DNA of 18,533 nt from a virus (lineage: Duplodnaviria; Heunggongvirae; Uroviricota; Caudoviricetes), in IMG/VR virus record IMGVR_UViG_2684622582_000009; one strand, given 5' to 3'. The notes beneath the pieces were generated by a model. The model had not been told where the DNA came from, made no database searches, and saw nothing but the letters and a program-made list of their open reading frames with translations. Position 1 is the stretch's first letter. Each line of letters starts with the position of its first letter. Shown here in pieces: positions 1,810 to 16,204 of this stretch. Position numbers and translations under genes: made by a program.

Positions 1810-1838
1810 TTCTGCCTCTCAGATTATATAGATAAGCA

Positions 1839-1966
1839 AAAAGGTGTTGGTTCAGTTGGTTCAGTTGGTTCAATTTGTAAAGAGCGTTGTTTTTATTGTG
1901 TTTTTTCTAAAATATTGAACCAACATCAACTCATTTTGAACCAACAAAAAGTGTCCGTGAACTAAC
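1839..1966. repeat. Iteron array A: three tandem GTTGGTTCA (1846..1872), then inverted copies TGAACCAAC at 1916..1924 and 1937..1945, and a degenerate TGAACTAAC at 1958..1966
   Basis: Read directly. Positions 1839..1884 are the exact reverse complement of 9395..9440. Interpretation as an alpha-binding ori/crr-like site is by analogy with P4 type I iterons. Confidence 0.7.
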
Positions 1967-2296
1967 ACTCTGTCAAATAGTCACTACATATATGAACGGT
2001 GAAGACTAAATTCGCCAGCAAATAGCTTATATAGCACCGCTTTATGCCGCAGTTATGCTGGAACAGTAATCATTTCACAGAACCGCCTAACTACTATATG
2101 GCACCTGCTAAAAAGCACATCAGCCTAGTCAGTTGATCGGTGCATGGATATCCTAACAATTCAACTATATAACGTGATCTCCCATGTCGATCTACTGTCA
2201 TGCAATGATTAACAAACACATAGACACATCTGCTTGGCGCATTGATTAATCACTGATCATCCATCAGGATATGCGAACCACCGTCACCAGGTTAGG

Positions 2297-3382
2297 ATGA
2301 TTCTCAAAAGCCACCTGTATTCAATGCCTTTGATGGGTTTCATCCATAGTTATTTTCTCGTGACTGACATGGAGATTTTGATTTCAAGGTGTGCAAAAAC
2401 TATCGCAGAGTACAATGGAGCTCAAATGACTGTGGCACCAAAAGATCAAAGTTTGAAATCTGTAAGGGTGGGCTTTTACACAAGCTCTGAGAATATTCGC
2501 ACTAGTAACAAGGGGTTAACCGCAGAGGCCTTTAAAAATCTGTATGATCGGTGTTCTAAAGACTTCAAGATGACCCACTATGCAGACTTTGGTGAAAGAG
2601 AACTTAAAATTCATTTTCTAGACATCTCACCCGAGGATGGCTCCTACTTCGGATTCATGTCTCGAAGAAGAAAAAGCGCAACACTGGCATATATTACAGA
2701 TAAAGAGTGGGTGGAAGAGAAAATCCCTCTAGCCGGGGCAAAGACTCTTTCAGAACGTACATACTTTATTTATTATCCTCAGACAGACATTCTAGTATTG
2801 TCTTTAAATCATTTAGGTCCACGCCATAGTGACTTAGCCTTCCTTCTTTTCAACTCCAGTGATCGCGGAGTCCCTGTTTCTTTTGAAGCCATTTGGAAAG
2901 AAGAAAGCATCAAAGAACTACTCGAAACTGGATCCAATCTAAGAAGCTGCGAGATTTCTGTGGCCATCCCAAGAAACTTCAATGCCGCACAGTATCAACT
3001 CGATGGAATGTTCGCGAATCAGATGATTGAGATGATCAGAGGCACCAGTTCAAGCCACCTGACTATTTCGTTACGCGGACATTCTCCATTAAAAAGAAAA
3101 GCAAAGGGATGGCTTGAGGATGACGTTAAAAAAAGCCTTAAGGAGATGCTAGAAAAGTTCCCTGGTGGTGATGGTCGTTTAACTTTTGAGAAAGCAAATG
3201 TTGTTGCTCAGGGCGATAAAAAGAAGAAAAGTCTTGTAGACGAAGTTCTTACGGTAAAGAAGATGGTGCCTATCCAAGCAGATGGGTATCCGACCGATAC
3301 TGACGTTAAAAATGCTATGCTACAAGCAAAGAATGACAACCTTAGGTATCTAACCCAGTACTATTTGGTTAGTCAAACGTAA
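2297..3382 (+). CDS. Hypothetical protein (361 aa as drawn), first gene of an AT-rich two-gene operon; candidate defence/abortive-infection component
   Basis: Long uninterrupted ORF in visibly AT-rich DNA. Possible starts are ATG 2297 (AGGT about 5 nt upstream) or ATG 2426 (GGAG 5 nt upstream), so the true N-terminus is uncertain. The stop lies 12 nt before the next gene's start. I recognise no family motif by eye. Confidence 0.6.
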   Translation: MILKSHLYSMPLMGFIHSYFLVTDMEILISRCAKTIAEYNGAQMTVAPKDQSLKSVRVGFYTSSENIRTSNKGLTAEAFKNLYDRCSKDFKMTHYADFGERELKIHFLDISPEDGSYFGFMSRRRKSATLAYITDKEWVEEKIPLAGAKTLSERTYFIYYPQTDILVLSLNHLGPRHSDLAFLLFNSSDRGVPVSFEAIWKEESIKELLETGSNLRSCEISVAIPRNFNAAQYQLDGMFANQMIEMIRGTSSSHLTISLRGHSPLKRKAKGWLEDDVKKSLKEMLEKFPGGDGRLTFEKANVVAQGDKKKKSLVDEVLTVKKMVPIQADGYPTDTDVKNAMLQAKNDNLRYLTQYYLVSQT

Positions 3383-3394
3383 CAGGAATACATT

Positions 3395-3832
3395 ATGAGT
3401 TCTCGGAAATTGTTTGCTGCCAAGTCATTGTTTGCTCTAGCTATGGCTATTGCTGGTGCCCATTTTTTACACGACCTAGATCACAATGCTGTCATTTCGG
3501 CTGCTGGTGCTCTTTCAACTATTTCTGGAGTTCTCTTTGGTTTTGTTTTGGCATCAGTCACCATGCTAAGTAGCTTTGATAGTTCAAAGGGAATTGTAGG
3601 CGCTCTAAAAAGTAACGGAGTACTAAAAGGCATTATTGAGGGGCTTTTTGATACAGGAACTACGCTGATCACAGCCTGCCTATTAGCAATGATCTCGATG
3701 TTTGCCCCTGTTGTCAGCAATCTGCCTCTGGATTATTATGCCCTGCTACTCGCAGGGGCATATTTGATTATATCAATGATAACTTTTTTCTTTAACTGGA
3801 AATCTTTATCTAAAATAATAAGTTACATATGA
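3395..3832 (+). CDS. Small integral membrane protein (145 aa, about four predicted TM helices); candidate membrane effector
   Basis: AGGAA Shine-Dalgarno 7 nt upstream of the ATG. Four hydrophobic segments of about 20 to 25 residues (LFAAKSLFALAMAIAGAHFL; AVISAAGALSTISGVLFGFVLASVTMLSSF; TTLITACLLAMISMFAPVV; YYALLLAGAYLIISMITFFFNW). Starts 12 nt after the 361-aa ORF. Confidence 0.7.
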   Translation: MSSRKLFAAKSLFALAMAIAGAHFLHDLDHNAVISAAGALSTISGVLFGFVLASVTMLSSFDSSKGIVGALKSNGVLKGIIEGLFDTGTTLITACLLAMISMFAPVVSNLPLDYYALLLAGAYLIISMITFFFNWKSLSKIISYI

Positions 3833-4170
3833 TAAATATTTCAAAATGAGTCCCCCTGCTACGGATAGTCCTTGGCTTAAAAAATACCGTCACCGCTGAA
3901 TACCCACACAGTGCCCCCACCCATTTAGTTGGCATAATGTATTCAACTGATTGAGGAATGGCTCCTCTTTTACTACCAAACGGCCATCGCTGGCGCATTC
4001 ATCCGCTGGTAGTGGAACTTTTTAGCCATCAGCGCCTCCCTAAATCAATTCCTTACATCGCTCAAATTCAACAACCATTGTTGTAATCTTGCTGCTATCA
4101 AGTAACGCCTTTGTATTACGCCGACTTTATCTTGCCAGCAACATACGCCATCCGATAATTTCGATGTTAC

Positions 4171-4554
4171 GCGCGCGTACTTGTCGCAAAATATCAGACA
4201 AAAGCCAGATTCAGAACGTCGTGATAACCACCAGCACAACATGAGAGGTCATGTAACGCGATTTATCACACCAGATACATGTGATTGGTGTACCCGCATA
4301 AAACATCGTCATAGCGCGTCCTGTGCGCATATACGCCGATAATCAACACATCACCACCACTCTGACTTATGTAGAGAACAGTTTTATGGTACTCCCCTCC
4401 ATCGTGCGCGTACTGGTCGGACGTAGTTGCAAAATTTTTTGCAACTGATACCCCTCGCGCGCGTACTTGTCTCGAAATTGGTGTTTTGCTGTGGCAGTGA
4501 TATCAGAAAAATCTTCCTGTTTCACATAAAGCGGATATGCGCGTACTGTAACGG
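4171..4554. repeat. Four same-orientation copies of a GCGCGTACT(T/G)GT-like motif (about 4171..4185, 4404..4418, 4456..4472, 4537..4550) plus a perfect palindrome GTTGCAAAATTTTTTGCAAC (4426..4445)
   Basis: Read directly in the intergenic block between the membrane-protein gene and the signal-peptide gene. Function unknown; could be operator sites, arm-type sites or a packaging-related element. Confidence 0.5.
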
Positions 4555-4664
4555 CCCCATCAACTGGGAGCGGATTTGAAATCCCGACCCAAGCTATGTA
4601 CCAAATGCCATGTCTTGGATATATGATGATTGCCATTCTAAACAACGCTAAAGGGAGGGTTGGT

Positions 4665-5063
4665 GTGAATCAATTGAAGCGATTGGTTGTCTCCGGTTTA
4701 TTATTTGCTTCTTTTGGAGCGAACGCTGAATGCTGGATTATTGGTGATCTGAAAGGACAAGAAGCCTCAAGTTTAGATGGGTATAACTATAAGTTATCAT
4801 CTATACCAGATACATTTCATTTGGTAATAAGTAAAGAGAAGGCGGATCTTATCTTGGCAAAAGATGGTATAGGTGGAGGTATTGATTATTACCCGCTATC
4901 TCCGAATGCCATGATGGGAAGAAGCTATCGAGATGGTCAACTGACGCTTGTCACATGGGCAATCTCAAATGACGGAAAAGTGATCCATACACGAACAATT
5001 AGTCGATCTGATATAGGCTCATTTACAGGCTCATTTGTCGGCAATGTTAAAGGCAAGTGTTAA
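4665..5063 (+). CDS. Small secreted/periplasmic protein (132 aa from GTG 4665) with a Sec-type signal peptide
   Basis: A strong Shine-Dalgarno AAGGGAGGG (4652..4659) sits 5 nt before the in-frame GTG at 4665, whereas the upstream ATG at 4596 has none. The N-terminus NQLKR-LVVSGLLFASFG-ANA|E has the n/h/c regions and AXA site of a signal peptide. The mature part has a Cys near each end. Confidence 0.55.
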   Translation: MNQLKRLVVSGLLFASFGANAECWIIGDLKGQEASSLDGYNYKLSSIPDTFHLVISKEKADLILAKDGIGGGIDYYPLSPNAMMGRSYRDGQLTLVTWAISNDGKVIHTRTISRSDIGSFTGSFVGNVKGKC

Positions 5064-5124
5064 TGTTCATAACTATTTGAAAAAATACTAATTACTATTA
5101 TAACCAACCATCCATGGCCATCTG

Positions 5125-7230
5125 TTATTGAGCTTCCTTTTGCGATGCTTGTGCTGCTGTGGTCAGTGATTGTGTGACCGTACTGATCGCTCTGTCATAT
5201 GCTGTGCTACCTTTTGGCGTATTTGCCAGACGTAACAAGGCATTTCGTATAACAGGGCTTTCGTATGCCTTCGCTGCTCCGCCTACGGAACCAGCAGCAG
5301 GAACAACAAACGCAGCCGTTTTTAGCATCCCCGCTAATACTGCTGCGTTTATGATGCCACCACCAACTAACAATCCATAAAGCTGCTGACCATTTAAGTT
5401 TTGAACGTTCGCTTTTGCCGCGTGTCTTGTATCGTTGAGGTATTTAATAACGCCGTCCAGTTCCTTTCCATGTATGCCTTTAAAGAAAGTTGCTGATTGC
5501 TTCCTGTTCCGGTGTAACGCATTAATAAACTTCTCAACACTGATATTTCCAGACGGATCAGTCGCCTTATCTACAGCATTCTGAACTATGGCTGCTCGTG
5601 CGTTTTGCCTACCATTGTCATCCAGAAGCCTGTAAAGCTGAGAACGTTCTGATGGGCTTTGGCTAAAAACAAGTTTTGTTACATCCTCAGGCGTGGCCTT
5701 GCCGCTGGCTATTGCCTTTTGAACGCGCGTTCTTCCCATCATGTCATTGAATTTAGACCATGAGCGATCAACCCTTGCCATATTAATAGCTTCGTCTGCT
5801 CCAAGATTTTTGGCTACGGCTTTTTTCATATCCGCCGTATATGCCTTGTAGATAATATCGCTGGCTTTCTGGAGCGTATCTTTATCAACAGTGTCAGATG
5901 ACGCCATAAATCGCTTTCGAAGATCGGTTCTGTTTTCCCTCGCCAGACGCAGGTCATTTGGTCCGCTGGTGATATCGTCTTTAAATTGCTGCAAGACTTT
6001 TACCGCGGCTCTATCCTGAGATTTGCCCGGGCGGCTTAACACGGCAATCTGATTGTCGATAGCTTTTACCGTGTTTGAGAGATCGACAGGGGTATCCCCC
6101 ATAGCGTCAATTATGCGGTTATATCGCTTTCCTGCTGCCTCAATGAATTTTTGTTGCCCTTTAGTCGCAGATTCATAAAGCTGTTTATCAGAAATGCCAC
6201 CCAGACCATCGCTAAATGTTCTGACTAAATTTTCTCGTGCTTGTTGTTGATTCAGCCGATTCTTACCGGTTCCAAAAAAAGGAACTCTTTCGCCTAATGT
6301 CTGAGCCTGACTCTGCATAAAGGTTTTATCTTTCAGCATGTCACTGGTCATTAACGGCAGATTTCTTTCCGATGCAAAGTCGACAGCAGCCTTTGCTTCA
6401 GGCGATATATCACCACGAACAGCCCTCGAAACCGCACTCGCTGTATTTTCCAGCCCCTTACCAATACCACCAATGCCAGCAGAAATTACCGTTTGTAACG
6501 GATCAATATCTTCTCCACCAGCGAGGCTGGTGGCTCCCTGTAGTGCTAAATCTGTAGCTGCTGATTTCCCTATGGCCCCCAGCACCGTTCCGGCCCTGCC
6601 CGCTGGTGTAAACGCCAGCGCATTAGCCAGAAACGATGCCACGTCTTGCGGCGATAAACCCGGCTTGTTCAGAGCATAATCACCGGATGGCAGGGAAACG
6701 ATAGTGTTACCCTTCTCATCCTGCCTTAATTTCGCTCCCATGCTCTGAAGAATCTTTTCCTGAGATGCGTCAGAGCCGAAAAGTTGAGACCATCGAGCTT
6801 TTAGAGCATCCATGCTGAGTGAGGTTAACTCTGGGGCAAGGTCGACATTTTGCAGTCTCTCCATCTCTGGAGTCATTCGGCTTTCGCCTGTTATAGCATC
6901 GCGCATCGCAGCCCCAAGACTGGCTCCCTGTTCTGCTGAACGCTCAAGCCCCTCTCTTTGCTGAGTAGCTAACTTTGCATACCCTGACGCAAGAGAATTA
7001 TCAGATGATGTATGTTGAATATTTTGAGTTGCTGATTGGGATCGGTCTATTTCATTCGTTGATGGTAGTGGATAGGCAGCATAAAAAGCCTGCTTAGCCT
7101 GCTCTACACTTTCTCCGGCTTGCGGGGCAACGACTTCATTGAAGTATTGCTCCTGAGCCTGCGCTTTTTGTTCTGGTGCTAACGCCTGATACTGTGGAGA
7201 GGCGATAACATCTTTCCATGCTTTAGCCAT
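5125..7230 (-). CDS. Large hypothetical protein (701 aa), A/Q-rich with a C-terminal glycine-zipper hydrophobic hairpin
   Basis: ORF with a GGGGTGA Shine-Dalgarno. Its ATG overlaps the upstream gene's stop (TAATG at 7228..7232), indicating translational coupling. The C-terminal segment LYGLLVGGGIINAAVLAGMLKTAAFVVPAAGSVGGAAKAY is about 40 hydrophobic, Gly-rich residues. No Walker A or other catalytic motif is recognisable. Confidence 0.75.
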   Translation of the reverse strand: MAKAWKDVIASPQYQALAPEQKAQAQEQYFNEVVAPQAGESVEQAKQAFYAAYPLPSTNEIDRSQSATQNIQHTSSDNSLASGYAKLATQQREGLERSAEQGASLGAAMRDAITGESRMTPEMERLQNVDLAPELTSLSMDALKARWSQLFGSDASQEKILQSMGAKLRQDEKGNTIVSLPSGDYALNKPGLSPQDVASFLANALAFTPAGRAGTVLGAIGKSAATDLALQGATSLAGGEDIDPLQTVISAGIGGIGKGLENTASAVSRAVRGDISPEAKAAVDFASERNLPLMTSDMLKDKTFMQSQAQTLGERVPFFGTGKNRLNQQQARENLVRTFSDGLGGISDKQLYESATKGQQKFIEAAGKRYNRIIDAMGDTPVDLSNTVKAIDNQIAVLSRPGKSQDRAAVKVLQQFKDDITSGPNDLRLARENRTDLRKRFMASSDTVDKDTLQKASDIIYKAYTADMKKAVAKNLGADEAINMARVDRSWSKFNDMMGRTRVQKAIASGKATPEDVTKLVFSQSPSERSQLYRLLDDNGRQNARAAIVQNAVDKATDPSGNISVEKFINALHRNRKQSATFFKGIHGKELDGVIKYLNDTRHAAKANVQNLNGQQLYGLLVGGGIINAAVLAGMLKTAAFVVPAAGSVGGAAKAYESPVIRNALLRLANTPKGSTAYDRAISTVTQSLTTAAQASQKEAQ

Positions 7231-8696
7231 TAATCACCCCATAGTGAAGAAAAGTTACTGCTGGCTGCTGGCTGTGATACCTGCTCAGATTGCGGCAATG
7301 TCTGCGACGAAGAAGCAGTTCCTCTGTCAACTGCTGAAATAACCCGCAAAGCATCATAAGTTCGACCAGAAGCAGCTTTCAGCGAATTGAACTGGTTTTC
7401 CATCTTCCGGCGCTTGGTATCAATGGTTTTTGTGGAGTCGCCAGGCTGAGGGAAATACATTTGATAATATTTTGACATTTCAGCAGGTGCGATAGCTGCC
7501 CCTGTTTCCTGACGGAGTATTGCCATTATTGCGTCATTAGCATTAACAACGTATTGCTGCTCTGCTGGGCTGAGCGTTAAGTTAGCCAGCGTCCCATTAC
7601 CCAAAGCATTATTAATGATCGCCACTCGCTGTGGGCTAAGCTGGTCTTTCAGTGTATCTATTGAATCAAGAGCATCCCTAACCCTGTATGCAAATCCAGC
7701 AGCTTTTTTAGCCCCTTCTGGCGACTTTTCCATGATCTTTTGGGCTGTTGGCAAAGCTATTGGACGAAACCCATCTCCAGATATTGGCTGGTTTAGTTTT
7801 CCCTGCTCTTCACTTCCGTCTGTGTAGTATTTTGTGACAGTGCCATCATCGTTTTCTCTAACACTCATTAATTTTTTGGCGTTTGTATTAATTCCAGCCG
7901 CTGCCGCAAATGCCGCCGCCCCCTCTGGATCCGCCTTTAACATTTGCGCGTACTGATTGTAATTCTGCATTGCGGCTGTTGGTGCATATGCTGACGTTAA
8001 CGCATTTGCTCGGCTAATATCCTGCCCTCTCGCCTGAAGTGCTTCTCCGGCCTGATTGCTGCGGATTGTCTCTGCCAACTTGCCACGCTCAATATCCCGA
8101 CCTTCCATTTGATCTTTGATATCGAAATACTTCTCATGACCGAGAGAAAACAGCGCCAGATTACCTGCGAAATGCTGGAAGCCCTGCGGGTCATTAACCT
8201 GCATTTCAGCAATAGTTTCTGGAGGGATACCTAAACGACGCATCTCCTGCTCATTATCCATCATGAACCTGCCAAATGCGCCCTGACCAAGCGATGAGGC
8301 TACCTGTGCTTTGAGCGCCAGATTGCCATAATCATCCCTTTGAGCATCATCGACATAACTCATCCCTTTACGGACTTCCTCAAACTCTTCTGGGAATGCT
8401 GTAATAAGATTACGCATCTGCTCCCTGTCACCGGACGCATAAGCATCTGCATAACCTTTCTGGAATGCTGCTTTACGCTCCTGCTGTTGCTGCTGCTTAT
8501 AAATATCAGCAACTCCAGCCAGACCACGAAGACCTGTCAGAGCAACGTTATTTGCACCTGAGCGAGCCAGTTCATTGTTTTCGCGGATCAGACCAAGCGT
8601 TGCGTTAATGTCGCTTGCTTTTGGCGCATTCTCATTTTGCGTACCGATGCCAGCCAGAAAACCACCAGAATTAATACCCTGTTGCCACGTAGCCAT
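7230..8696 (-). CDS. Large hypothetical protein (488 aa from ATG 8696; 492 aa if GTG 8708 is used), A/Q-rich, low complexity
   Basis: Long ORF translationally coupled to the 701-aa gene. The track start at 8708 is a GTG overlapping the upstream small gene; the ATG at 8696 (MATWQQG...) lies 4 nt after that gene's stop. Contains a QQQQQ run and many Ala/Gln. Confidence 0.75.
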   Translation of the reverse strand: MATWQQGINSGGFLAGIGTQNENAPKASDINATLGLIRENNELARSGANNVALTGLRGLAGVADIYKQQQQQERKAAFQKGYADAYASGDREQMRNLITAFPEEFEEVRKGMSYVDDAQRDDYGNLALKAQVASSLGQGAFGRFMMDNEQEMRRLGIPPETIAEMQVNDPQGFQHFAGNLALFSLGHEKYFDIKDQMEGRDIERGKLAETIRSNQAGEALQARGQDISRANALTSAYAPTAAMQNYNQYAQMLKADPEGAAAFAAAAGINTNAKKLMSVRENDDGTVTKYYTDGSEEQGKLNQPISGDGFRPIALPTAQKIMEKSPEGAKKAAGFAYRVRDALDSIDTLKDQLSPQRVAIINNALGNGTLANLTLSPAEQQYVVNANDAIMAILRQETGAAIAPAEMSKYYQMYFPQPGDSTKTIDTKRRKMENQFNSLKAASGRTYDALRVISAVDRGTASSSQTLPQSEQVSQPAASSNFSSLWGD

Positions 8697-8700
8697 AAAT

Positions 8701-8874
8701 TTACCCACGTCCAGTTAAAGTGTAAGCCAGCGCCTTATCCATTAATCCCCGAGCAATTTCGTGGATCGTTGGCGCAACTCCTACCTCTGATTTTTTACGC
8801 TGCTCCTCCTGAATTTTCTTTATCGCTTCCATTTGCTTCTCACTTATCAATACTGGCTTTACTGAAATAGCCAT
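8701..8874 (-). CDS. Small protein (57 aa), possible ribbon-helix-helix DNA-binding protein; first gene of the LexA-box operon
   Basis: Not in the ORF track because it is under 60 aa. The ATG at 8874 follows a strong Shine-Dalgarno AAGGGGG. Translation: MAISVKPVLISEKQMEAIKKIQEEQRKKSEVGVAPTIHEIARGLMDKALAYTLTGRG. A beta-strand-like VKPVLIS followed by two helical segments is compatible with an RHH fold, judged by eye only. Confidence 0.5.
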   Translation of the reverse strand: MAISVKPVLISEKQMEAIKKIQEEQRKKSEVGVAPTIHEIARGLMDKALAYTLTGRG

Positions 8875-8889
8875 AACGCCCCCTTAGAA

Positions 8890-8913
8890 CTGTATAAAAC
8901 AACAGTTATTATA
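8890..8913 (-). promoter_or_regulatory. Candidate SOS promoter: LexA box CTGTATAAAACAACAG (8890..8905) directly downstream of a perfect TATAAT -10 (minus strand, 8908..8913)
   Basis: Read directly: CTG-N10-CAG with an AT-rich spacer, flanked as AACTGT...ACAGTT like the dinD box. It sits 16 to 31 nt upstream of the 57-aa gene's ATG, a position typical of LexA operators overlapping the -10/+1 region. The -35 element is weak. Confidence 0.6.
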
Positions 8914-9196
8914 GTTTCACAAATCGCAATATTCATCATCGTAATTGCAAAATATGAAACAAATAGCACAAAAAAATGCCACCGCTCAGTAGCTGGTGGC
9001 ATCGTTCTGTGTGTCAGGTTTTGACAGGTTTTTTATGGACTCTAAAAACTATATTTATGGTGTCGCATTACTCTTCACGGCAGGCGCTTTTCAGTTCTGC
9101 CCTTGCTTCTGGCTCCATTGGTAATTTGATTCGCGATCAGCTATGCGGATGGTTTGCTGAACAGGCATAACAACTTCTCAGAGGCTGTTTTTTGAA

Positions 9197-9272
9197 CTAC
9201 GAAAATTTCGTAGTGCTCACTTTCAAAAACGTCACGCCCTTGTACACAGGATTTTACGAAAGTCTCGTAAAA
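9197..9272. promoter_or_regulatory. Two related palindromes, CTACGAAAATTTCGTAG (9197..9213) and TTTTACGAAAGTCTCGTAAAA (9252..9272); operator-like sites
   Basis: Read directly; both share a TACGAAA half-site and lie about 55 bp apart between the iteron array and the LexA-box promoter. They are AU-rich and lack a following T-tract, so they are unlikely to be terminators. Confidence 0.3.
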
Positions 9273-9322
9273 CACTCTCTGATGCCAGCCAGGTGTTGTG
9301 CGCATCAATTCAGTCACATTGT

Positions 9323-9440
9323 GTTGGTTCAAAATACCGTGTTGTTGGTTCAGTGTTGGTTCAATAAAAAGAATAAAATCCTTATAAAACAATACTCTTT
9401 ACAAATTGAACCAACTGAACCAACTGAACCAACACCTTTT
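9323..9440. repeat. Iteron array B: GTTGGTTCA at 9323..9331, 9344..9352 and 9355..9363, then three tandem TGAACCAAC (9407..9433); mirror image of array A
   Basis: Read directly. Positions 9395..9440 are the exact reverse complement of 1839..1884. The array lies immediately downstream of the primase-helicase gene, consistent with an origin-type alpha-binding site (inference). Confidence 0.7.
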
Positions 9441-9458
9441 CTACGCACATGAAGAAGT

Positions 9459-12215
9459 TCATTCTTCAGATGAGTTATAATCTCCTGGCTGGTAATTGAG
9501 TACATAAACGTTTATTTGTCGTCCCTGAATACGTGGTGATTTTCTTTGGTATCCACGACCGCTGTTTGGTGGGGTTAGCATCCCGGCTTTTTTCAACACT
9601 TCAGCAAACTGTTTTGCGTTGAAACCACATGCGATCTCCTTTTCAAATGTGGCCGGGAATGTGTAGAAAATCATTGGGCTTTCGTCATGTTCTCCACGCT
9701 GACGGTATCCGGCTAAATCTTTGATGGGCAAATCTGCCGGGCTGTATGGAAATGGAGCAAAACGGCTAAGCCCATAGGCATTAAGAAATGCCTCCGTTTG
9801 TTCAATAATCTGCTGATGCTCTTTGTTACCTGTGCCGAACTCGCGCAACCATGCGTTATAGCTGTGCTGTATCGCATCACGGCATGTCTGAGCATCCCAG
9901 CCTGTTACAACCTCGCCTAACAGCAATGCGGCCTCCAGAATGGCAAATCGCGCGGCTACACGGTGAACCTGCTCACCATAATCGGATGGGATCAGACTTC
10001 TCCATCTGCTTTCGCAGTCACGAACAGTTTTAATTGCCTGTTGCTGGTGGTCTGCCAGCCATTTAATCCACTCACGCCCGGCTGCGCCGTGGTGATGCTG
10101 GTAAGCGTCTTTCAGTGCGTCTGCGTGCTGTTTTCCGTTCTGGTAATCGTGAAAGCGTACTGCTTTACTCAACGGAATATTCAGCAGTCGCACCAGTTGC
10201 CCGGCTTTGGTTTTTCGCCCGGAAGTAGCGATAAATGTTTCTAAATCCATTTCTCCGGTGCTGATTGCCACTGTACGCCAGCGTTTTAGATCCCGGTTTC
10301 CACCATCTTTAGCGCCTTGCAGTTTCCCTACACCGTTAAATAACGCATAGGCAGACTGTGAAACACTGACAGGATCAGCGCCCTGACCAACTTCATCAAG
10401 CGGCATTAGTCCGTCATTGTGGGCGGCAGCTTCATTTGCCAGCCCCAGCGCGGTTCCGTACCATGTCAGCCGCAGTAAATCAGGGTTGCCGTATAAGCAG
10501 CTCGCCACGTTTGCCGTGGTGGTCTTACCTGCGCTCGACTGCTCATAGAAATGAATGCCGAACCCGTCAGCGCCCACCAGCCCAATCAATGGCGCTGCCA
10601 GTGCTGCGCCGATCCCGGTCATCATTGAATAGTTACCAAAGGCCAGACGCGCCACGTTATCACGCCAGCTTTTCGCGCTCCCTGAGACGGTATATCCGGC
10701 TGCGGCTGAGCTTCTCCCGCTGAACAGCACAGGATTTTCAGGTGTTCCGATGATTTCCCCATCAGGCATGATGTACGCTCCGCATTGCCAGCCAGTGGCA
10801 TGAGCAACACGCCACAATTCACGAGAGCCACTGCGTTGTAGCCAGTCTGCCAGTATTGCTCTGAGGCTGCTTTTGGTCGTGACATTTACCCCACCAGCTT
10901 TAAGTGTGCGCCATCCTTCACGTTCACCAATATCAGCCAGTGGAATGGCAGCGGTTGTCGGCGTTTCAGAACCAAACGACAGCCAGCGAAGAATGAGATA
11001 CTGGTCTTTATCGTCTCTGCCAGTACCGATAACGCTTAACGGAGAACATAACCAGCTTTCGTTATTGATGATTTCTCCACTCTGGCTGTCAGCTCTCGGA
11101 GATACCCAATAAATACCATCCTCGCGGCTTTCTATTCTTGGTTTCAGTGGGTCGGTATCCATAACCTTAAAATCGCTTCCCTCAATGGTCTGTGGCTCCT
11201 GTTTCACGCCATTACCCTGTGGTTGGTACATTGACTTATTGAACGCTTCTGTGGCGCATTTAATGCCGTGTTTTTGGTGGTAATCATTCCAGTCTGCTTT
11301 GTGATCTGTCGGGGGTAATGCCACCCATCCAGAAACAGATAAAGCTGCCTTTTCTGCTGCTATTCTCCCCGTGTTTTGTCTTACTTCGCTGTGGTCGTTA
11401 TCCGCAGCAATGATGATTTGTGCTGAAGGAAATTTATCCCGCAGTACCTGGGCGACATATAACAGGTTCCCGGCATCAATCGCCGCCACTGTCAGCGCCT
11501 CTGGACGAATTAAATGGGCAGATAATGCCGTTGCCAGCCCTTCTGCGATTAAGATGCTCTGTGTTGTTTCTGGTGCGTTTATGGCGTGATATGCCCCTCG
11601 CTTTGCTGAACCTGTCAGGAGTCTTTTTTCACCATGTGAGGTAATAGTCTGTGCTGCTGTTACTGCGCCGGATTTATCCACCAGCGCCAGCAACAGAGAT
11701 CCATCGGGCAACACGGGGAATGTAAAATCACCTACCCCTTTCGCAACCAGATAATCAGATTTGCCGTTTACAGCCTTTCTGCGCATGTCATCAAACTGAC
11801 GGGAAAACGTATCCCGTCTTTGTTGTTCGTCCTTCTCTGCCCTTTTCAGGCGCTCCTGTTCGCGTCGCTGGCGCTCGGTTTCCAGTTGTTCCCGTTTCTG
11901 GCTGGTGGCTTCTGGTGTTTCCGTTGTCCGGTAATCAATACCCAGAACATCAGCGGCAAGAAGCGCCGCCTCTGTTGTGTCGCAGTTATTTACGCGTTTA
12001 ATTAAATCCAGCCCATCACCAGCGCCGCACTGATTACAGATGAAGCTACCGCGCCCGTTGTCGTCGAACCGGAATCGATCTTTGCCCCCACATGCAGGGC
12101 AGGGAGCATGACGGCGCGGAGAGTCAGGGACATTTATGTTCAGACAGCACAGCACATGAGGCCAGTTGTTTTCAGACGCACTGATAACCTGACGGATAAG
12201 ATCAATGTTTCGCAT
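9459..12215 (-). CDS. P4 alpha-like primase-helicase (918 aa)
   Basis: N-terminal Cys4 zinc ribbon (CPACGG...CNQCG), a TOPRIM-like acidic segment (IIIAADNDH) and a Walker-A-like SSAGKTT in the C-terminal half. GGGGG Shine-Dalgarno upstream of the ATG at 12215. This architecture matches P4 alpha / D5-type primase-helicases as I recall them. Confidence 0.85.
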   Translation of the reverse strand: MRNIDLIRQVISASENNWPHVLCCLNINVPDSPRRHAPCPACGGKDRFRFDDNGRGSFICNQCGAGDGLDLIKRVNNCDTTEAALLAADVLGIDYRTTETPEATSQKREQLETERQRREQERLKRAEKDEQQRRDTFSRQFDDMRRKAVNGKSDYLVAKGVGDFTFPVLPDGSLLLALVDKSGAVTAAQTITSHGEKRLLTGSAKRGAYHAINAPETTQSILIAEGLATALSAHLIRPEALTVAAIDAGNLLYVAQVLRDKFPSAQIIIAADNDHSEVRQNTGRIAAEKAALSVSGWVALPPTDHKADWNDYHQKHGIKCATEAFNKSMYQPQGNGVKQEPQTIEGSDFKVMDTDPLKPRIESREDGIYWVSPRADSQSGEIINNESWLCSPLSVIGTGRDDKDQYLILRWLSFGSETPTTAAIPLADIGEREGWRTLKAGGVNVTTKSSLRAILADWLQRSGSRELWRVAHATGWQCGAYIMPDGEIIGTPENPVLFSGRSSAAAGYTVSGSAKSWRDNVARLAFGNYSMMTGIGAALAAPLIGLVGADGFGIHFYEQSSAGKTTTANVASCLYGNPDLLRLTWYGTALGLANEAAAHNDGLMPLDEVGQGADPVSVSQSAYALFNGVGKLQGAKDGGNRDLKRWRTVAISTGEMDLETFIATSGRKTKAGQLVRLLNIPLSKAVRFHDYQNGKQHADALKDAYQHHHGAAGREWIKWLADHQQQAIKTVRDCESRWRSLIPSDYGEQVHRVAARFAILEAALLLGEVVTGWDAQTCRDAIQHSYNAWLREFGTGNKEHQQIIEQTEAFLNAYGLSRFAPFPYSPADLPIKDLAGYRQRGEHDESPMIFYTFPATFEKEIACGFNAKQFAEVLKKAGMLTPPNSGRGYQRKSPRIQGRQINVYVLNYQPGDYNSSEE

Positions 12216-12227
12216 TCTGGCCCCCGT

Positions 12228-12830
12228 TTAGTGCGTCACTGGTGCTTCTGGGATGCCGTTTTCGTTTAGTTCGGCAATAAAGCTGTTGTGAAGATCGGCA
12301 AGCACTTCTCGCCCAAACGAAGTGAGTGTTCCCTGTTCGACATCGAACATGTTGCTGTAAAAAATGATGGCATTCTTTGTTCCGACATCAACACCATATT
12401 TCTCGATCATTGCGCCCTCAATGTTGTTTGCCATAGCGAGGCGCTCTGCTACTGGATACAGCGGCATGGCGACGATGCCATTGGAATAAACAGAAACCAC
12501 GGAATGATTGCCACTGTCATCAATAATGCTGACGGTGCCGTTTTCCTTTCTCATTTCATTGATGAATGCTGTTGCTATCAGCCAGCGCCACATAATCACG
12601 TGATGCTGTGATGTGTAATCGAAATATCCCTGGTTGCCGCCACTGGCAATAGCGAGATGTATAAACATGCCTTCATCTGGTTTATCGTCATAATCCCCGG
12701 CATCCAGACGATTTACGGCATCAATATATGAGACGGTCTCAACGCGTTCTGTCATGCCATCGTTGCTGCGATACATGATGTTTACGCCGTCAGGCGTTGC
12801 TTCTGCATGGAAAGTTAAGAAATTATTCAT
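12228..12830 (-). CDS. Hypothetical protein (200 aa from ATG 12830)
   Basis: The track ORF extends to 12935, but the ATG at 12830 has a GAGG Shine-Dalgarno and overlaps the stop of the upstream 73-aa gene, so I take 12830 as the start. No family recognised. Confidence 0.6.
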   Translation of the reverse strand: MNNFLTFHAEATPDGVNIMYRSNDGMTERVETVSYIDAVNRLDAGDYDDKPDEGMFIHLAIASGGNQGYFDYTSQHHVIMWRWLIATAFINEMRKENGTVSIIDDSGNHSVVSVYSNGIVAMPLYPVAERLAMANNIEGAMIEKYGVDVGTKNAIIFYSNMFDVEQGTLTSFGREVLADLHNSFIAELNENGIPEAPVTH

Positions 12831-13044
12831 GTTTCGCCTCGCCTGAATGATTCTGTAACTCATATTTGCCCAACAATTCGTCCGCTTCCTGAATAGCTTC
12901 TGGTACGCCATTGAGTAGTGACATAACCGCGCCAATCATTAACTTGTCTCTGTTGCTTGGGCTGGCCCCTTCAAGCCAGAACCCTAAAACAGTCTGAACC
13001 TGTTCGATGCGACATTGCGCTTCAATGAGCTGGATGTTGGTCAT
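12823..13044 (-). CDS. Small hypothetical protein (73 aa), coupled operon member
   Basis: Its ATG at 13044 overlaps the upstream gene's TGA in an ATGA arrangement. Part of a run of tightly coupled small genes upstream of the primase. Confidence 0.5.
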   Translation of the reverse strand: MTNIQLIEAQCRIEQVQTVLGFWLEGASPSNRDKLMIGAVMSLLNGVPEAIQEADELLGKYELQNHSGEAKHE

Positions 13045-13304
13045 TTCGCACTCTCCACATCGATTAAACTGATATCTATCAGGGAGGTAACTTTTTGTAG
13101 CCAGCTATTGATTACTGTCGCCTGTTCCCCTCCCACCGAGGGAATAATCTCATTCATCACATGAACCAGACCTGTGCGCGCTCTGGTAAGCCGTTCAGTC
13201 GCGCAATCTGCGGGAGTGAATGTGTCTGGATATGGCTCTTCACGCCCCAGCAATGATTCAATTTCCAGCTCACACGGATGACGATAAATTAAGTTGATAT
13301 TCAT
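13041..13304 (-). CDS. Small hypothetical protein (87 aa), coupled operon member
   Basis: ATGA start/stop overlap with the upstream gene at 13301..13304. Confidence 0.5.
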   Translation of the reverse strand: MNINLIYRHPCELEIESLLGREEPYPDTFTPADCATERLTRARTGLVHVMNEIIPSVGGEQATVINSWLQKVTSLIDISLIDVESAK

Positions 13305-13495
13305 TTTTCACCCCCAAGAATTACCAGCTCGGCACGGGCATCGTTAACCAAAGATGAGCACGCTTTAATCGCATCCACGACATCAGCAGCGTCCATTTCT
13401 TCAGCCGAAAGACTGACAGCAACCAGGACAGCCGCTGCTTGCTCGATTAATTGAAGTGCGGACGTAAGGCGAGGGGTATTAATTGAGTTATTCAT
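13301..13495 (-). CDS. Small hypothetical protein (64 aa from ATG 13495; [10 protein letters not shown]...)
   Basis: The ATG at 13495 overlaps the upstream gene's stop region (CCAATGAATAA). The track's longer 83-aa version would overlap the upstream gene extensively. Confidence 0.5.
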   Translation of the reverse strand: MNNSINTPRLTSALQLIEQAAAVLVAVSLSAEEMDAADVVDAIKACSSLVNDARAELVILGGEK

Positions 13496-13706
13496 TGGTT
13501 GCCCCCGTTTTGCATGGCATTTGTCCACCTTCCAGCAGGAAATGAACGTCACGAACGGCGAGATCCAATATCGCGAGTAACGCCTTCAGTTTTTCATCTC
13601 GTGAGGGAGAGTTGCTTGCCAGAATGTCGTTAATCACTTCTGTCAGTGTGATGATCTGGCTTGTGCGTTCGAGGGGATCCATATGCACATCGTAGGTTTT
13701 AATCAT
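13488..13706 (-). CDS. Small hypothetical protein (72 aa from ATG 13706; [15 protein letters not shown]...), in frame with and nested in the 355-aa ORF
   Basis: A strong Shine-Dalgarno GGAGGTGG lies immediately upstream of the ATG at 13706. The C-terminal part looks protein-like, whereas the middle of the 355-aa ORF does not. Confidence 0.45.
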   Translation of the reverse strand: MIKTYDVHMDPLERTSQIITLTEVINDILASNSPSRDEKLKALLAILDLAVRDVHFLLEGGQMPCKTGATNE

Positions 13707-14555
13707 GTGCCACCTCCATGCGGATACGACCAGCAAAAAAGCAGACGTGATCGCGCACCAGAGAAAGGCGAGCATCGCGTTCAGACTCGGCAGCAATATG
13801 ATGAATTTTGGCGGTAATTGTCGGGCAATCGCGGCGAACTGCGGCGATAATCCAGATAAATTGCGGTTTTTGGGTAGGGGTAGTAGCCAGCATGTGGCAG
13901 CCTCCTTCAGATAGCAGGTTACGCTACCACCGGAAACGCCAATTTCGCTGGTGGTAGCCCAGACAGGGTTGGCGTAACCGGCTCTGAAGGATACCGGCGC
14001 TTCCGAAGAAGCCCCCGCCTGAGCCACCATTGATTGACAAGGGCGCTGGATTATACACCAACGCCCAAAAAATGGGTGAGTCAGACCTACGACATAAAAA
14101 AAGACGCTCGGCGCGTCATATGTCGCCTTCAGAATTTTCAGGACGCCAATCCCGGCACCCGTTTTATGAGGTGCCTTATAACCATAAACCGTGTTGCCGC
14201 ATAACGGCAAGCTCTTTTTTATGGACTCCGAAAACTCACTATTGGAAGCACCAGATGCACAATACATCGCGCTTATTTCGTTAACGTCACGCGCGTGGAC
14301 GAAGGTTTTTGTGGAGTCACTACACGAGCAGAACAGGTCATCTACGACCAGAAATTCTCTGGCGCAGCCGCTGACCTTCTCAACGCTAACATCATCGACC
14401 GTAATTTCTGACATAGTTAAGGCATCCGCTCCTACCACCAGCAAATGATAAACTTTGCTTGTATCTGCTGTATTAATGCCTGACTTTGCCGCCATATTGC
14501 TGTATTTTGGCGACATGCCAGCCAGTGAAAATATCTTCTTCTGGACGGGTATCAT
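13488..14555 (-). CDS. 355-aa ORF of uncertain reality (possibly a genuine N-terminal gene plus read-through, or a region with non-coding function)
   Basis: The start at 14555 has a GGAGG Shine-Dalgarno and ATGA coupling to the upstream 59-aa gene, so translation probably initiates here. The central 150 or so residues are rich in W, C and P and look like a non-coding frame, and several opposite-strand ORFs overlap. Confidence 0.3.
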
Positions 14556-14731
14556 TGGTTAACCTCCGTAAACTCCTTCATGAAACGCGCCAGCGGTTGT
14601 ACGCATGGCGATTGATACCCGTCGCGATAAAACGTCACTCGGTTGTGAGACACGCTTTCGACAGTAACGAGTGCTCCGTGGGCATCTTTGTAGCGTTTTT
14701 GAGGTTGTGGTGTTCCTGTTGGCTTAGACAT
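14552..14731 (-). CDS. Small hypothetical protein (59 aa; MSKPTGTPQPQKRYKDAHG...)
   Basis: The ATG at 14731 overlaps the antirepressor stop (ATGTCTAA). The track's 88-aa version would overlap the antirepressor gene by about 90 nt. Confidence 0.45.
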   Translation of the reverse strand: MSKPTGTPQPQKRYKDAHGALVTVESVSHNRVTFYRDGYQSPCVQPLARFMKEFTEVNQ

Positions 14732-15557
14732 TGACCGCCTCCAGACGCTTGGCGAGCCAGCGTTGCGACAGGCGGGTGAGTTCTCCTTTGCGCTGCTCAT
14801 ATTCCATGCCCATATCAATTAACGTGATATTGGTGCTTTCGAGATATGAGAGGTGCTCAAGTTGTTCTGCGTTCATATGGTCGCGAGGTTCGCCAGAATA
14901 GCCATTTATCCGCGCCCACTGCTTAGCAGTTAGCCCACCAAGAACGATACGAGAAATCATATTGCTCTCGTTTGTGTAGTGGTGTTGCTGCGTCGTTTTC
15001 CCCTGCTCGGCACGGGCCATATTCAGCGCATCGCACATTGGCTTAAAGTTGTTTGCGGCACTGAGACGGGCTTTTAGCTGGCGACGATAGCGGGCGGCGA
15101 TTTCAGGCACGCTACGCTGTAATTCTTCCTCGCACTGGATGAAATAACGACGGATAGCGCGACCCTGATCATTGCGTTCGATCATTGCCAGTTCTTTCGC
15201 CATTCCGACACTTAACAGATAGTCTTTACTGGGTCTGCCAGAGTGCTTAATCTTGCTGTAAGCCGCGCTATTCGGGCTTTTCCCCAAATTTGGGGAAATA
15301 GTTTTATGGACTGAGTAATCGTGCCCAATGGTGAAGTCATATTCAGAGATGCGATCAGTGATCCATGTAGAGAAGTCTTTTCCCACTCCCAACGCTTTGT
15401 GTAACGCTTTTGCGCTAACAATATTGGTTTCACGCCCACCTATATGACCAGAAATAACCGGGACAATTGCGGCAAATTCATTACCGTTAATTGTGCCCAG
15501 AGAGGCGTTCAGATGAGGGGCGGCCTCAGAAATTAATCTGCTTTTTTCGATGTTCAT
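14724..15557 (-). CDS. Phage antirepressor, AntA/Ant-type (277 aa)
   Basis: The N-terminal region (NIVSAKALHKALGVGKDFSTWITDRISEYDFTIGHDY) resembles the AntA-type antirepressor N-domain, and the central segment SVGMAKELAMIERNDQGRAIRRYFIQCEEEL resembles the antirepressor C-terminal region, both from recall. Confidence 0.7.
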   Translation of the reverse strand: MNIEKSRLISEAAPHLNASLGTINGNEFAAIVPVISGHIGGRETNIVSAKALHKALGVGKDFSTWITDRISEYDFTIGHDYSVHKTISPNLGKSPNSAAYSKIKHSGRPSKDYLLSVGMAKELAMIERNDQGRAIRRYFIQCEEELQRSVPEIAARYRRQLKARLSAANNFKPMCDALNMARAEQGKTTQQHHYTNESNMISRIVLGGLTAKQWARINGYSGEPRDHMNAEQLEHLSYLESTNITLIDMGMEYEQRKGELTRLSQRWLAKRLEAVNV

Positions 15558-15569
15558 TTTCAGTCTCCG

Positions 15570-16001
15570 TTAGGCGGCGTTAAACGCGTCCGGGTAGAGT
15601 TTCAGAATGTCGGCAATTTCCTGCTGAGAAAGTCCGTTGTGATCATTTATGTTCGCAAGATGGTTAACATGAGTGATCACTTTCAGAACATCACCACGGC
15701 AGGAGAAACGGTAGCGAAGGTGTGTTCCGATACCATCAGGATTCTTTTCGTCGATACGCTCCAGAGTGATTCCAAGCTGGCGTTCTAACTCTGTTGCATA
15801 GTTACGACCAGAAGACAGACGGCAGTAGCGAAGAATGTCATTTTCTGTCCATCCCTCTATACCAGTACGCAGCATATAGACTCGGGCACGATGCTTTTTC
15901 GGTGTGCGCTTTGGTGCTTGAAGGGATTTTGTAAGGGGCGTAATATCAGATACGCGAATATCTGAATTAGCCGCCTGTAATGGGCGGTTTTTCTTTTCCA
16001 T
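15570..16001 (-). CDS. Hypothetical protein (143 aa), coupled to alpA
   Basis: ATGA overlap with the alpA stop at 15999..16003. Basic N-terminus; no family recognised. Confidence 0.6.
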   Translation of the reverse strand: MEKKNRPLQAANSDIRVSDITPLTKSLQAPKRTPKKHRARVYMLRTGIEGWTENDILRYCRLSSGRNYATELERQLGITLERIDEKNPDGIGTHLRYRFSCRGDVLKVITHVNHLANINDHNGLSQQEIADILKLYPDAFNAA

Positions 16002-16204
16002 CAGGCCACCTTCCCGCGGCGTTCTGCCAGCCAGTTGTGAATCTCAACCGCATCAAACGCAGTTATTTTTTCTCCCAGCTTTACCGGACGTGGTAGTGAA
16101 CCGTTTCTTACTTTACGGTCGATGGTGGATACACTAACGCCCAGCAATTCAGCCAGGCGAAAGCGTCTGATATAGCCTTTTGTAGGGATAGTGTCGATGT
16201 TCAT
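16001..16204 (-). CDS. alpA: AlpA-family (phage Vis-like) transcriptional regulator (67 aa)
   Basis: The segment RLAELLGVSVSTIDRKVRNGSLPRPVKLGEKITAFDAVEIHNWL fits the AlpA helix-turn-helix pattern (L-x-E-x-x-G-x-S-x-STI-x-R ... P-x-P-V-K-L-G ... W) as I recall it. Its position just downstream of the integrase region is typical for P4-like and PICI elements. Confidence 0.8.
   Translation of the reverse strand: MNIDTIPTKGYIRRFRLAELLGVSVSTIDRKVRNGSLPRPVKLGEKITAFDAVEIHNWLAERRGKVA

What the first reader, a model, noticed from the sequence alone, without database searches (positions are those of the whole stretch)
4596..5063. Small secreted protein encoded convergently with the 701-aa gene
The best-supported start (GTG 4665 with a strong ribosome-binding site) yields a protein with a textbook Sec signal peptide and a mature domain of about 110 residues with terminal cysteines. 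Periplasmic proteins on satellites are candidates for superinfection exclusion or immunity factors. Its convergent placement next to the membrane-hairpin protein is suggestive.
Basis: inference. Interest (0 to 1): 0.45.

Follow-up and report, generated by a model that had tools for sequence, protein, structure and literature searches.

The report
Secreted Hex-like phage-exclusion protein on a satellite
This is a real gene for a small secreted beta-barrel protein related to phage 434 Hex, a factor that excludes phage P22; it sits on a phage satellite in the slot where P22 keeps its exclusion gene sieA, so it is most likely a periplasmic block to superinfecting phages.

Summary
The ORF is real and starts at GTG 4665, six bases after a GGAGG. 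It encodes 132 aa: a 21-residue Sec-type signal peptide (ANA|E), then a 111-residue all-beta domain whose second and last residues are invariant cysteines.

Pfam, NCBIfam, PADLOC and PDB sequence searches find nothing. It belongs to PHROG 2651 and is about 30% identical over its full length to phage 434 Hex ("heterologous exclusion" of P22) and Sf6 gp38.

The host element is an EcCIMP1-like phage-inducible chromosomal island carrying P22-type ejection-protein genes (gp20-like, gp16-like). The gene lies convergent to the gp16-like gene, as sieA does in P22. P22-like prophages carry homologues in that slot, after mnt.

In E. coli islands with 98-99% identical gp16 and the same upstream DNA, ribosome-binding site and start codon, the ORF is replaced by a SieA homologue or a four-helix membrane protein.

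Best reading: a periplasmic superinfection-exclusion protein that probably blocks DNA delivery by P22-like phages. This mechanism is inferred, not shown. The published cytoplasmic role of Hex (blocking RecA-stimulated repressor cleavage) fits poorly with the family-wide signal peptide. It is a new member of a known kind, of moderate interest.

The parts
4665..5063 (+). CDS of the Hex-like secreted protein (132 aa plus stop), GTG start
   Evidence: PGAP uses the same start in NZ_CP098187. PHROG 2651 matches at E=3e-22. Identity to 434 Hex, Sf6 gp38 and Emek orf129 is 30-33% over 98% of the length.
4654..4658 (+). Shine-Dalgarno GGAGG, 6 nt before the GTG
   Evidence: Read directly from the sequence. 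It is shared by all three slot alleles.
4665..4727 (+). Predicted Sec/SPase I signal peptide (residues 1-21, cleavage ANA|E)
   Evidence: n/h/c regions and the -3/-1 rule are met. In the model it is a helix at residues 3-18 with lower pLDDT.
4728..5060 (+). Mature 111-aa all-beta (barrel-like) domain with invariant Cys at +2 and at the C-terminus
4670..5107 (+). Swappable cassette: the part replaced by unrelated ORFs in sister islands
   Evidence: Upstream junction right after GTGA; downstream junction at CCATCCATGGC. Blastn blocks are window 4125-4670 and 5108-8200.
4125..4664 (+). Conserved upstream segment with no annotated gene and GCGCGTACT repeats; presumed promoter or regulatory region of the slot gene
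   Evidence: 96-98% identical in L015, L016 and L014. Repeats at 4173, 4406 and 4459 against 0.1 expected by chance, plus a near copy at about 4540. No function is shown.
5125..7230 (-). 701-aa gp16-type ejection ('DNA transfer') protein, convergent neighbour
   Evidence: phrog_770 at E=8e-162. About 30% identity to the gp16-type proteins of Emek and of a P22-like prophage. PGAP names it 'injection protein'.
7230..8708 (-). 492-aa gp20-type ejection protein
   Evidence: PF16928 Inj_translocase at E=1.6e-83; phrog_917.

Best explanation
The gene encodes a small protein that is exported by the Sec pathway, cleaved after Ala21, and folds in the periplasm into a compact beta-barrel. An N-to-C disulfide (Cys23-Cys132) probably closes the barrel. 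It is a member of the phage 434 Hex family.

It is carried by an EcCIMP1-like phage-inducible chromosomal island, whose characterised relative uses a P22-like helper phage. It occupies the slot next to the ejection-protein genes that P22 uses for sieA. I propose it is made in the uninduced island and blocks superinfecting P22-like podophages at DNA delivery. The likely route is binding a periplasm-exposed part of the ejection-protein conduit (gp7/gp20/gp16 type) or another virion part that enters the periplasm.

Shown here: the gene, its start, the signal-peptide features, the fold class, the homology to Hex, the sieA-slot position and the allelic swap with SieA. Inferred: export, the disulfide, expression in the resting island, the exclusion phenotype, and the target.
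For: 1. Homology. Full-length similarity to 434 Hex, Sf6 gp38 and relatives. Hex is named for heterologous exclusion: Salmonella carrying lambda imm434 excludes P22, and hex- lysogens do not (PMC3564112).

2. Position. P22 has gene 16 followed by a convergent sieA 23 nt away. The window has the gp16-like gene followed by this convergent gene 61 nt away. Phage Emek and four P22-like prophages carry homologues in the same slot. In those four prophages the order is mnt -> Rap1a -> Hex-like, which looks like an operon.

3. Allelic replacement. Sister islands have a 98-99% identical gp16-like gene and the same upstream DNA, SD and start codon. In them the ORF is either a 204-aa SieA homologue or a four-helix membrane protein. 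The SieA homologue carries the RYPGEA motif, matches P22 SieA by BLASTP at E=3e-8 and PHROG 7745 at E=1e-4. In 5,426 complete E. coli genomes the Hex-like allele is in 126, the SieA-like in 103 and the four-helix allele in 229.

4. Compartment. The signal peptide and the cysteine pair are conserved across the family. SieA is thought to act on the periplasmic gp20 and membrane gp16 conduit (PMC10883804).

5. Element. The related island EcCIMP1 adds to superinfection immunity against its P22-like helper, and no known defence system was found on it (PMC11773190).
Against: - No experiment exists on this protein, and expression was not tested. No convincing promoter was found immediately upstream: the nearest +-strand consensus match is at 4132-4159, at the start of the conserved upstream segment, and consensus matches are not evidence of function.
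- The only biochemical study of the family reports a cytoplasmic activity, inhibition of RecA-stimulated repressor cleavage (PMC3564112).
- The stage at which Hex excludes P22 is not stated in the papers I could read, so a block at DNA entry is an assumption.
- EcCIMP1 itself, the island with the measured immunity phenotype, has no Hex-like gene.
- The three slot alleles sit next to nearly identical gp16 genes, so there is no sign of co-variation between the exclusion gene and the ejection proteins.
- Fold searches give only generic barrel matches.
Confidence: 0.55

Rival explanations
1. It acts like published Hex. In this view it is a cytoplasmic 'repressor protection protein' that binds an S24-type phage repressor (434 cI, P22 c2) and hinders RecA-stimulated autocleavage. 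That would stabilise lysogeny of the helper prophage.
For: Shkilnyj et al. 2013 (PMC3564112) report three results. A hex mutant raises spontaneous induction 30-fold in a recA-dependent way. A Hex fragment partly complements this defect. The fragment also inhibits cleavage of 434 and P22 repressors in vitro. The 135-aa subfamily always overlaps an imm434-type cI by 4 nt. The window's island probably depends on a P22-like helper whose repressor is of the affected type.
Against: - All family members have an N-terminal signal peptide with a conserved cleavage motif and a conserved cysteine pair. These are features of exported proteins.
- The active fragment 'sHex' starts at Glu of ECW, exactly the predicted signal-peptidase site. 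The authors could not explain this N-terminus. Overexpressing full-length Hex was lethal, which would fit overload of the secretion machinery (my inference).
- sHex is about half of the barrel and was purified through guanidine.
- The window copy and the Emek-type copies are not next to any repressor, and no S24 repressor was found on the island.
Confidence: 0.1
2. It is a periplasmic inhibitor of a cell-wall-degrading enzyme. The enzyme could be carried by the incoming virion or delivered by a competitor's type VI secretion system. This would be analogous to PliC/MliC lysozyme inhibitors, T4 Sp or Rap1a immunity proteins.
For: - In P22-like prophages the homologue follows a Rap1a-family (PF18602) gene.
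- EcCIMP1's gp16-type protein is annotated as carrying a lytic transglycosylase domain. The window's 701-aa protein matches a PHROG annotated 'transglycosylase'.
Against: There is no sequence similarity to any inhibitor family. The structural matches are generic, and inhibitor folds are not the top hits. Pfam finds no transglycosylase domain in the 701-aa protein.
Confidence: 0.15
3. It is a secreted accessory protein unrelated to phage defence, for example a ligand-binding, host-interaction or envelope-stress factor carried as cargo.
For: The barrel resembles lipocalin, avidin and FABP-type binders as much as anything else. Aeromonas homologues sit at the edge of integrative islands without phage ejection genes. 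The island also carries a PerC-type virulence regulator.
Against: The contexts examined in enterobacteria are two classic lysogen-expressed exclusion slots: cI-N and the sieA slot. There is direct allelic exchange with SieA, and genetic evidence exists for Hex.
Confidence: 0.12
4. It inserts into the outer membrane as a small beta-barrel and masks or alters a surface receptor.
Against: - The mature domain is only 111 aa, and four of its nine strands are 5-6 residues long, too short to span a membrane.
- The C-terminus is Cys or polar residues, not the aromatic end usual for outer-membrane barrels.
- An N-to-C disulfide is typical of soluble periplasmic proteins. This last point rests on general knowledge.
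Confidence: 0.06

Closest known systems
Phage 434 Hex (heterologous exclusion; annotated 'repressor protection protein') and Sf6 gp38; PHROG 2651
   Same: A homologue over the whole length, at about 30% identity. It shares the signal-peptide-like N-terminus, the [D/E]CW start of the mature part, the C-terminal FVGxVxGxC and the size.
   Different: Hex overlaps the imm434 cI gene and is transcribed from PRM. The window gene lies on a satellite in the sieA slot with no repressor nearby. The published Hex activity is cytoplasmic, and the authors used a longer N-terminus (Glu43 against Glu19 here).
P22 SieA (inner-membrane superinfection exclusion protein; PHROG 7745)
   Same: It has the same genomic slot, convergent just after gene 16. 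It is interchangeable with a SieA homologue in sister islands. The target compartment is plausibly the same, namely the ejection-protein conduit (PMC10883804).
   Different: There is no sequence or fold relationship. SieA is a multi-pass membrane protein with a cytoplasmic RYPxEA motif, whereas this is a soluble secreted barrel.
EcCIMP1, an E. coli phage-inducible chromosomal island mobilised by P22-like phage Kapi1 (Pick, Stadel and Raivio 2025)
   Same: The host element has the same backbone: integrase, AlpA, AntA, Ash, TOPRIM-DUF927 primase, ejection-protein genes and PerC. Nucleotide identity is 94-98% over about 7.3 kb.
   Different: EcCIMP1 sits at tRNA-Thr, has a different and larger set of ejection genes, and has no Hex-like gene.
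Periplasmic or envelope exclusion proteins of other phages: P1 Sim, T4 Sp and Imm, Cor and Llp lipoproteins, Ltp, and the HXS periplasmic effector
   Same: These are prophage- or host-encoded exported proteins that stop infection at or before DNA entry. Sim is cited as an exclusion factor in PMC3564112. HXS is described as periplasmic gatekeeping of DNA entry in PMC13128918. The other examples rest on my own knowledge.
   Different: No sequence similarity was detected, and the mechanism of the present protein is untested.

Membership tests
Phage 434 Hex family (PHROG 2651) | Full-length sequence homology to Hex or Sf6 gp38 | tested here: met
   phrog_2651 at E=3.2e-22 covers residues 17-132. 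tblastn gives E=1e-12 to 1e-14 with 98% coverage. The alignment is A1.
Phage 434 Hex family (PHROG 2651) | Conserved architecture: N-terminal hydrophobic leader, [D/E/N]C[W/Y/F] start of the mature part, C-terminal Cys | tested here: met
   C23 and C132 are invariant in 44 sequences. Of 133 full-length sequences checked from the representative search, 121 have the C[WYF] motif and 128 have a C-terminal Cys.
Phage 434 Hex family (PHROG 2651) | Gene overlaps and follows an imm434-type cI repressor (PRM operon) | tested here: not met
   The window gene follows a 546-bp segment with no annotated gene and faces the gp16-like gene. No S24 repressor was found on the island. This feature defines the cI-linked subfamily only.
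Phage 434 Hex family (PHROG 2651) | Excludes P22 or P22-like phages when expressed | not testable with these tools
   This is known only for 434 Hex, from genetics (PMC3564112).
Phage 434 Hex family (PHROG 2651) | Inhibits RecA-stimulated cleavage of 434 and P22 repressors | not testable with these tools
   It is reported for a Hex fragment in vitro. That is hard to reconcile with the predicted export.
P22 SieA family | Sequence homology and the FxRYPxEAxxFNK motif | tested here: not met
   There is no PHROG 7745 hit for the window protein. The motif is present in the alternative allele L016 instead.
P22 SieA family | Multi-pass inner-membrane protein | tested here: not met
   The only hydrophobic segment is the cleavable leader, and the rest is modelled as an all-beta domain.
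P22 SieA family | Position between the gene 16 and gene 9 homologues, convergent with gene 16 | tested here: met
   The P22 layout is and the window layout. There is no tailspike on the island, but the gene 16 side is the same.
Sec/SPase I exported proteins | Positive n-region, hydrophobic h-region, small residues at -3 and -1, no lipobox | tested here: met
   K5 and R6 are in the n-region, the core scores 2.07, the cleavage motif is A-N-A|E, and Glu precedes the Cys. SignalP was not available.
Sec/SPase I exported proteins | Demonstrated export and cleavage | not testable with these tools
   One indirect hint exists: the 434 'sHex' fragment begins at the homologous Glu.
EcCIMP1-like phage-inducible chromosomal island (host element) | Integrase, AlpA, primase and PerC backbone without capsid or lysis genes | tested here: met
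   Nucleotide identity to EcCIMP1 is 98.5% over 8726-12215 and 93.9% over 12230-16011.
EcCIMP1-like phage-inducible chromosomal island (host element) | Excision and transfer dependent on a helper phage | not testable with these tools
   This is shown only for EcCIMP1 with Kapi1.
PliC/MliC-type periplasmic lysozyme inhibitors | Specific fold and sequence match to the inhibitor family | tested here: inconclusive

The most novel reading that the evidence does not exclude
The whole Hex family may consist of secreted periplasmic proteins that block the ejection-protein conduit of P22-like podophages. If so, the puzzling observations in the Hex paper (lethality of the full-length protein, and a fragment starting at Glu43) would reflect an overlooked signal peptide. 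The RecA and repressor effect would then be indirect or an in vitro artefact. EcCIMP1-like satellites would carry, next to their own ejection-protein genes, a one-gene exclusion slot with a fixed promoter, ribosome-binding site and start codon. Into that slot unrelated exclusion genes (Hex-like, SieA-like, a four-helix protein) are exchanged as cassettes.
Probability: 0.35. Interest if true: 0.65.

Novelty: new member of a known kind. Interest (0 to 1): 0.5.

Why it matters
Exclusion at the DNA-entry step is one of the least understood layers of phage resistance. For short-tailed phages only SieA has a proposed target. A soluble periplasmic protein in the same slot would be a tractable probe of the ejection-protein conduit.

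The result would also give a candidate for the unexplained superinfection immunity of this class of satellites. It shows a precise cassette-exchange point for exclusion genes that genome miners could use. It suggests that the one biochemical study of Hex should be revisited with the signal peptide in mind.

The Hex-like allele is present in about 2% of complete E. coli genomes. Roughly 8% carry one of the three alleles.

Tried and rejected
Searches that found nothing useful:
- Pfam, NCBIfam and PADLOC gave no hit for the protein.
- A profile search of PDB sequences gave no hit at E<=1.
- The afdb50 fold library was not available.
- A single-sequence word-index search found only near-identical proteins. 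The alignment-based search was needed to reach further.

Ideas checked and dropped:
- A lipoprotein reading was rejected because the residue before the Cys is Glu or Asp in most members.
- The upstream ATG 4596 was rejected as the start.
- I expected EcCIMP1 itself to carry the gene, but it does not.
- tblastn of the 204-aa alternative allele against phage genomes found nothing. Its SieA relationship rests on pairwise BLASTP, the motif and a weak PHROG hit.
- The consensus scan gave one +-strand promoter-like match, at 4132-4159 within the conserved upstream segment, but none close to the start codon. It gave no terminator between the convergent genes.
- The minus-strand ORF 4367-4645 has no family hit and PGAP does not annotate it.

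Full report
**The gene**

The window has an ORF at 4596-5063 on the + strand.
- GGAGG lies at 4654-4658, six bases upstream.
- NCBI's PGAP annotates exactly this 399-nt gene in other E. coli genomes as 'hypothetical protein', WP_001426179.1.
- In sister islands two unrelated ORFs share the same upstream DNA up to GTGA and then diverge. One of them has a 2-nt deletion that puts the upstream ATG out of frame.

The product is 132 aa and begins MNQLKRLVVSGLLFASFGANA|ECW.

**Export signals**

The leader has basic residues at positions 5 and 6, a 12-residue hydrophobic core and Ala at -3 and -1. Glu precedes the cysteine, so it is not a lipoprotein. The mature part is 111 aa, 12 kDa, with pI about 7. 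Cys is its second and its last residue.

A profile search starting from four phage and window sequences returned 101 proteins. An exhaustive profile search of 1.84 billion representatives returned 204, those listed mostly stand-alone proteins of about 120-150 aa. Both cysteines are invariant in a 44-sequence alignment.

Across 191 members, position -1 is A, S or G in 176, position -3 is A, S, V or T in 167, and 186 have a basic n-region. SignalP was not available, so export is a rule-based prediction. It is conserved family-wide.

**Fold**

Several strands are only 5-6 residues long and the C-terminus is not aromatic. I therefore read it as a soluble barrel, not an outer-membrane one; this is inference. 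The first and last strands carry the two cysteines, which suits a closing disulfide. I could not measure this on the model.

**Relatives**

Pfam, NCBIfam and PADLOC are silent. PHROG 2651, of unknown function, matches at E=3e-22.

tblastn against phage genomes finds 16 records at 30-33% identity over 98% of the length. These include phage 434 and lambda imm434, Sf6 gene 38, HK446, HK633, Sf101, Emek and ST-35.

In 434 the gene is annotated 'repressor protection protein', which is Hex. It overlaps the end of cI and precedes N. Sf6 has the same layout. Homologues from Enterobacter, Klebsiella and Yersinia prophages all overlap an imm434-type cI by 4 nt.

**What is known about Hex**

Shkilnyj, Colon and Koudelka (PMC3564112) state that Hex stands for heterologous exclusion. 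Salmonella lysogenic for lambda imm434 excludes P22, and hex- lysogens do not; they cite Susskind and Botstein 1980.

The paper itself argues that Hex lowers spontaneous induction by hindering RecA-stimulated cleavage of 434 and P22 repressors. It never mentions a signal peptide.

Two of its puzzles fit export. Overexpression of full-length Hex stopped growth. The only stable fragment, 'sHex', began at Glu43 of ECWIV with no protease site to explain it. That Glu aligns with Glu22 here, the predicted signal-peptidase site.

**The neighbourhood**

The 701-aa convergent neighbour matches PHROG 770 'DNA transfer protein' (E=8e-162). It is about 30% identical to gp16-type proteins of P22-like phages. 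The next gene is a gp20-type protein, PF16928 at E=1.6e-83.

In P22, gene 16 is followed 23 nt later by the convergent sieA. In phage Emek the Hex homologue takes that place. In four P22-like prophages the order is gp7, gp20, gp16, then the convergent mnt -> Rap1a-family -> Hex-like.

So the family occupies the two classic lysogen-expressed exclusion positions of lambdoid and P22-like phages. One is the cI-N position, where lambda has rex. The other is the sieA slot.

**The element**

The window runs from dinD to an integrase that lies next to yicC in related genomes. It carries AlpA, AntA, Ash, a TOPRIM-DUF927 primase and PerC. It is 94-98% identical over about 7.3 kb to EcCIMP1.

EcCIMP1 is a phage-inducible chromosomal island shown to be mobilised by the P22-like phage Kapi1. 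It adds to superinfection immunity against Kapi1, and no known defence system was found on it (PMC11773190). EcCIMP1 itself lacks a Hex-like gene.

**A cassette slot**

In 5,426 complete E. coli genomes, about 595 share part of window 4300-5200, mostly the upstream flank.
- Only 126 have this ORF, all at >=99% identity.
- In 103 genomes the ORF is a 204-aa membrane protein with the SieA motif RYPGEA. It matches P22 SieA by BLASTP at E=3e-8 and PHROG 7745 'SieA-like' at E=1e-4.
- In 229 genomes it is a 115-129-aa protein with four hydrophobic helices.

The gp16-like gene is 98-99% identical in all three. The junctions are right after the start codon and at CCATCCATGGC, just before the end of the gp16-like gene. 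A known exclusion gene and this gene are therefore alternative fillings of one expression slot.

**How it most likely works**

SieA blocks DNA injection by P22-like phages. Escape mutations map to gp16 and gp20, which points to the trans-periplasmic conduit as the target (PMC10883804).

I propose that the Hex-like protein is exported, folds into a disulfide-closed barrel and interferes with the same delivery step from the periplasmic side. The compartment and the slot are supported by evidence. The phenotype, the stage and the target are inferred.

I give about 0.55 to the general claim that it is a periplasmic exclusion factor, and less to the specific target.

**Rivals**

- A cytoplasmic repressor-protection role. 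This has published support for 434 Hex, but it conflicts with the export signals and with the lack of a nearby repressor here.
- An inhibitor of a wall-degrading enzyme. The Rap1a neighbour and the barrel fold are hints only.
- Cargo unrelated to phage defence.
- An outer-membrane barrel.

**Novelty**

The gene is a new, satellite-borne member of the Hex family, in a position already known for exclusion genes. To my knowledge three things have not been described in the papers I could search:
- the family-wide signal peptide;
- its occupation of the sieA slot;
- the three-way cassette exchange in EcCIMP1-like islands.

Noticed in passing
window 4125-4664: This 540-bp segment has no annotated gene, yet it is 96-98% identical in sister islands and in EcCIMP1. 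It carries GCGCGTACT(K)GT at 4173, 4406 and 4459 and a near copy at about 4540, all on the + strand, against 0.1 expected by chance. It may be an operator, promoter or packaging site.
   Followed up: partly
window 5125-8708 (-): The island carries its own gp16-type and gp20-type ejection-protein genes but no gp7-type gene. EcCIMP1 carries DUF2824, a gp7-sized gene, gp20-like and a 906-aa gp16-like protein annotated with a lytic transglycosylase domain. Why a satellite supplies ejection proteins is open.
   Followed up: partly
window 13947-14034 (-) and 14097-14174 (-): Rfam finds a C4 antisense RNA (79.9 bits) and isrK (67.8 bits). Both lie inside the long ORF 13488-14555, which is annotated as an Ash family protein. 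That ORF may therefore be over-called, and the island may have an RNA-based immunity switch.
   Followed up: no
window 1810-4124; L013 3745-5152; L016 1084-2491: The stretch between PerC and the conserved upstream segment is variable cargo. The window has a 361-aa protein (phrog_7651) and a 145-aa membrane protein (phrog_8552), neither with a PADLOC hit. Other strains carry an Abi family protein there. It looks like a defence hotspot.
   Followed up: partly
L005-L008 5399-6390: In P22-like prophages the Hex homologue is the third gene after mnt and a Rap1a-family gene (PF18602, type VI amidase immunity; E=1e-14). The genes overlap or lie 15 nt apart, which suggests a lysogen-expressed operon of periplasmic protective proteins.
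   Followed up: partly
L015 3328-3717 (229 E. coli genomes): The commonest filling of the slot is a 115-129-aa protein with four hydrophobic helices and no hit in Pfam or PHROGs. It is a candidate for a third, undescribed exclusion protein.
   Followed up: partly
L014 11749-12447 (-): In EcCIMP1 the gene after the gp16-like gene is a 232-aa protein on the same strand with no family hit. It takes the place of the slot gene in the one island with a measured immunity phenotype.
   Followed up: no
L009-L012 6001-6426: Aeromonas homologues (141 aa) lie at the edge of integrative islands next to integrase fragments, resolvases and a type I restriction gene, with no ejection-protein or cI genes nearby.
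   Followed up: no
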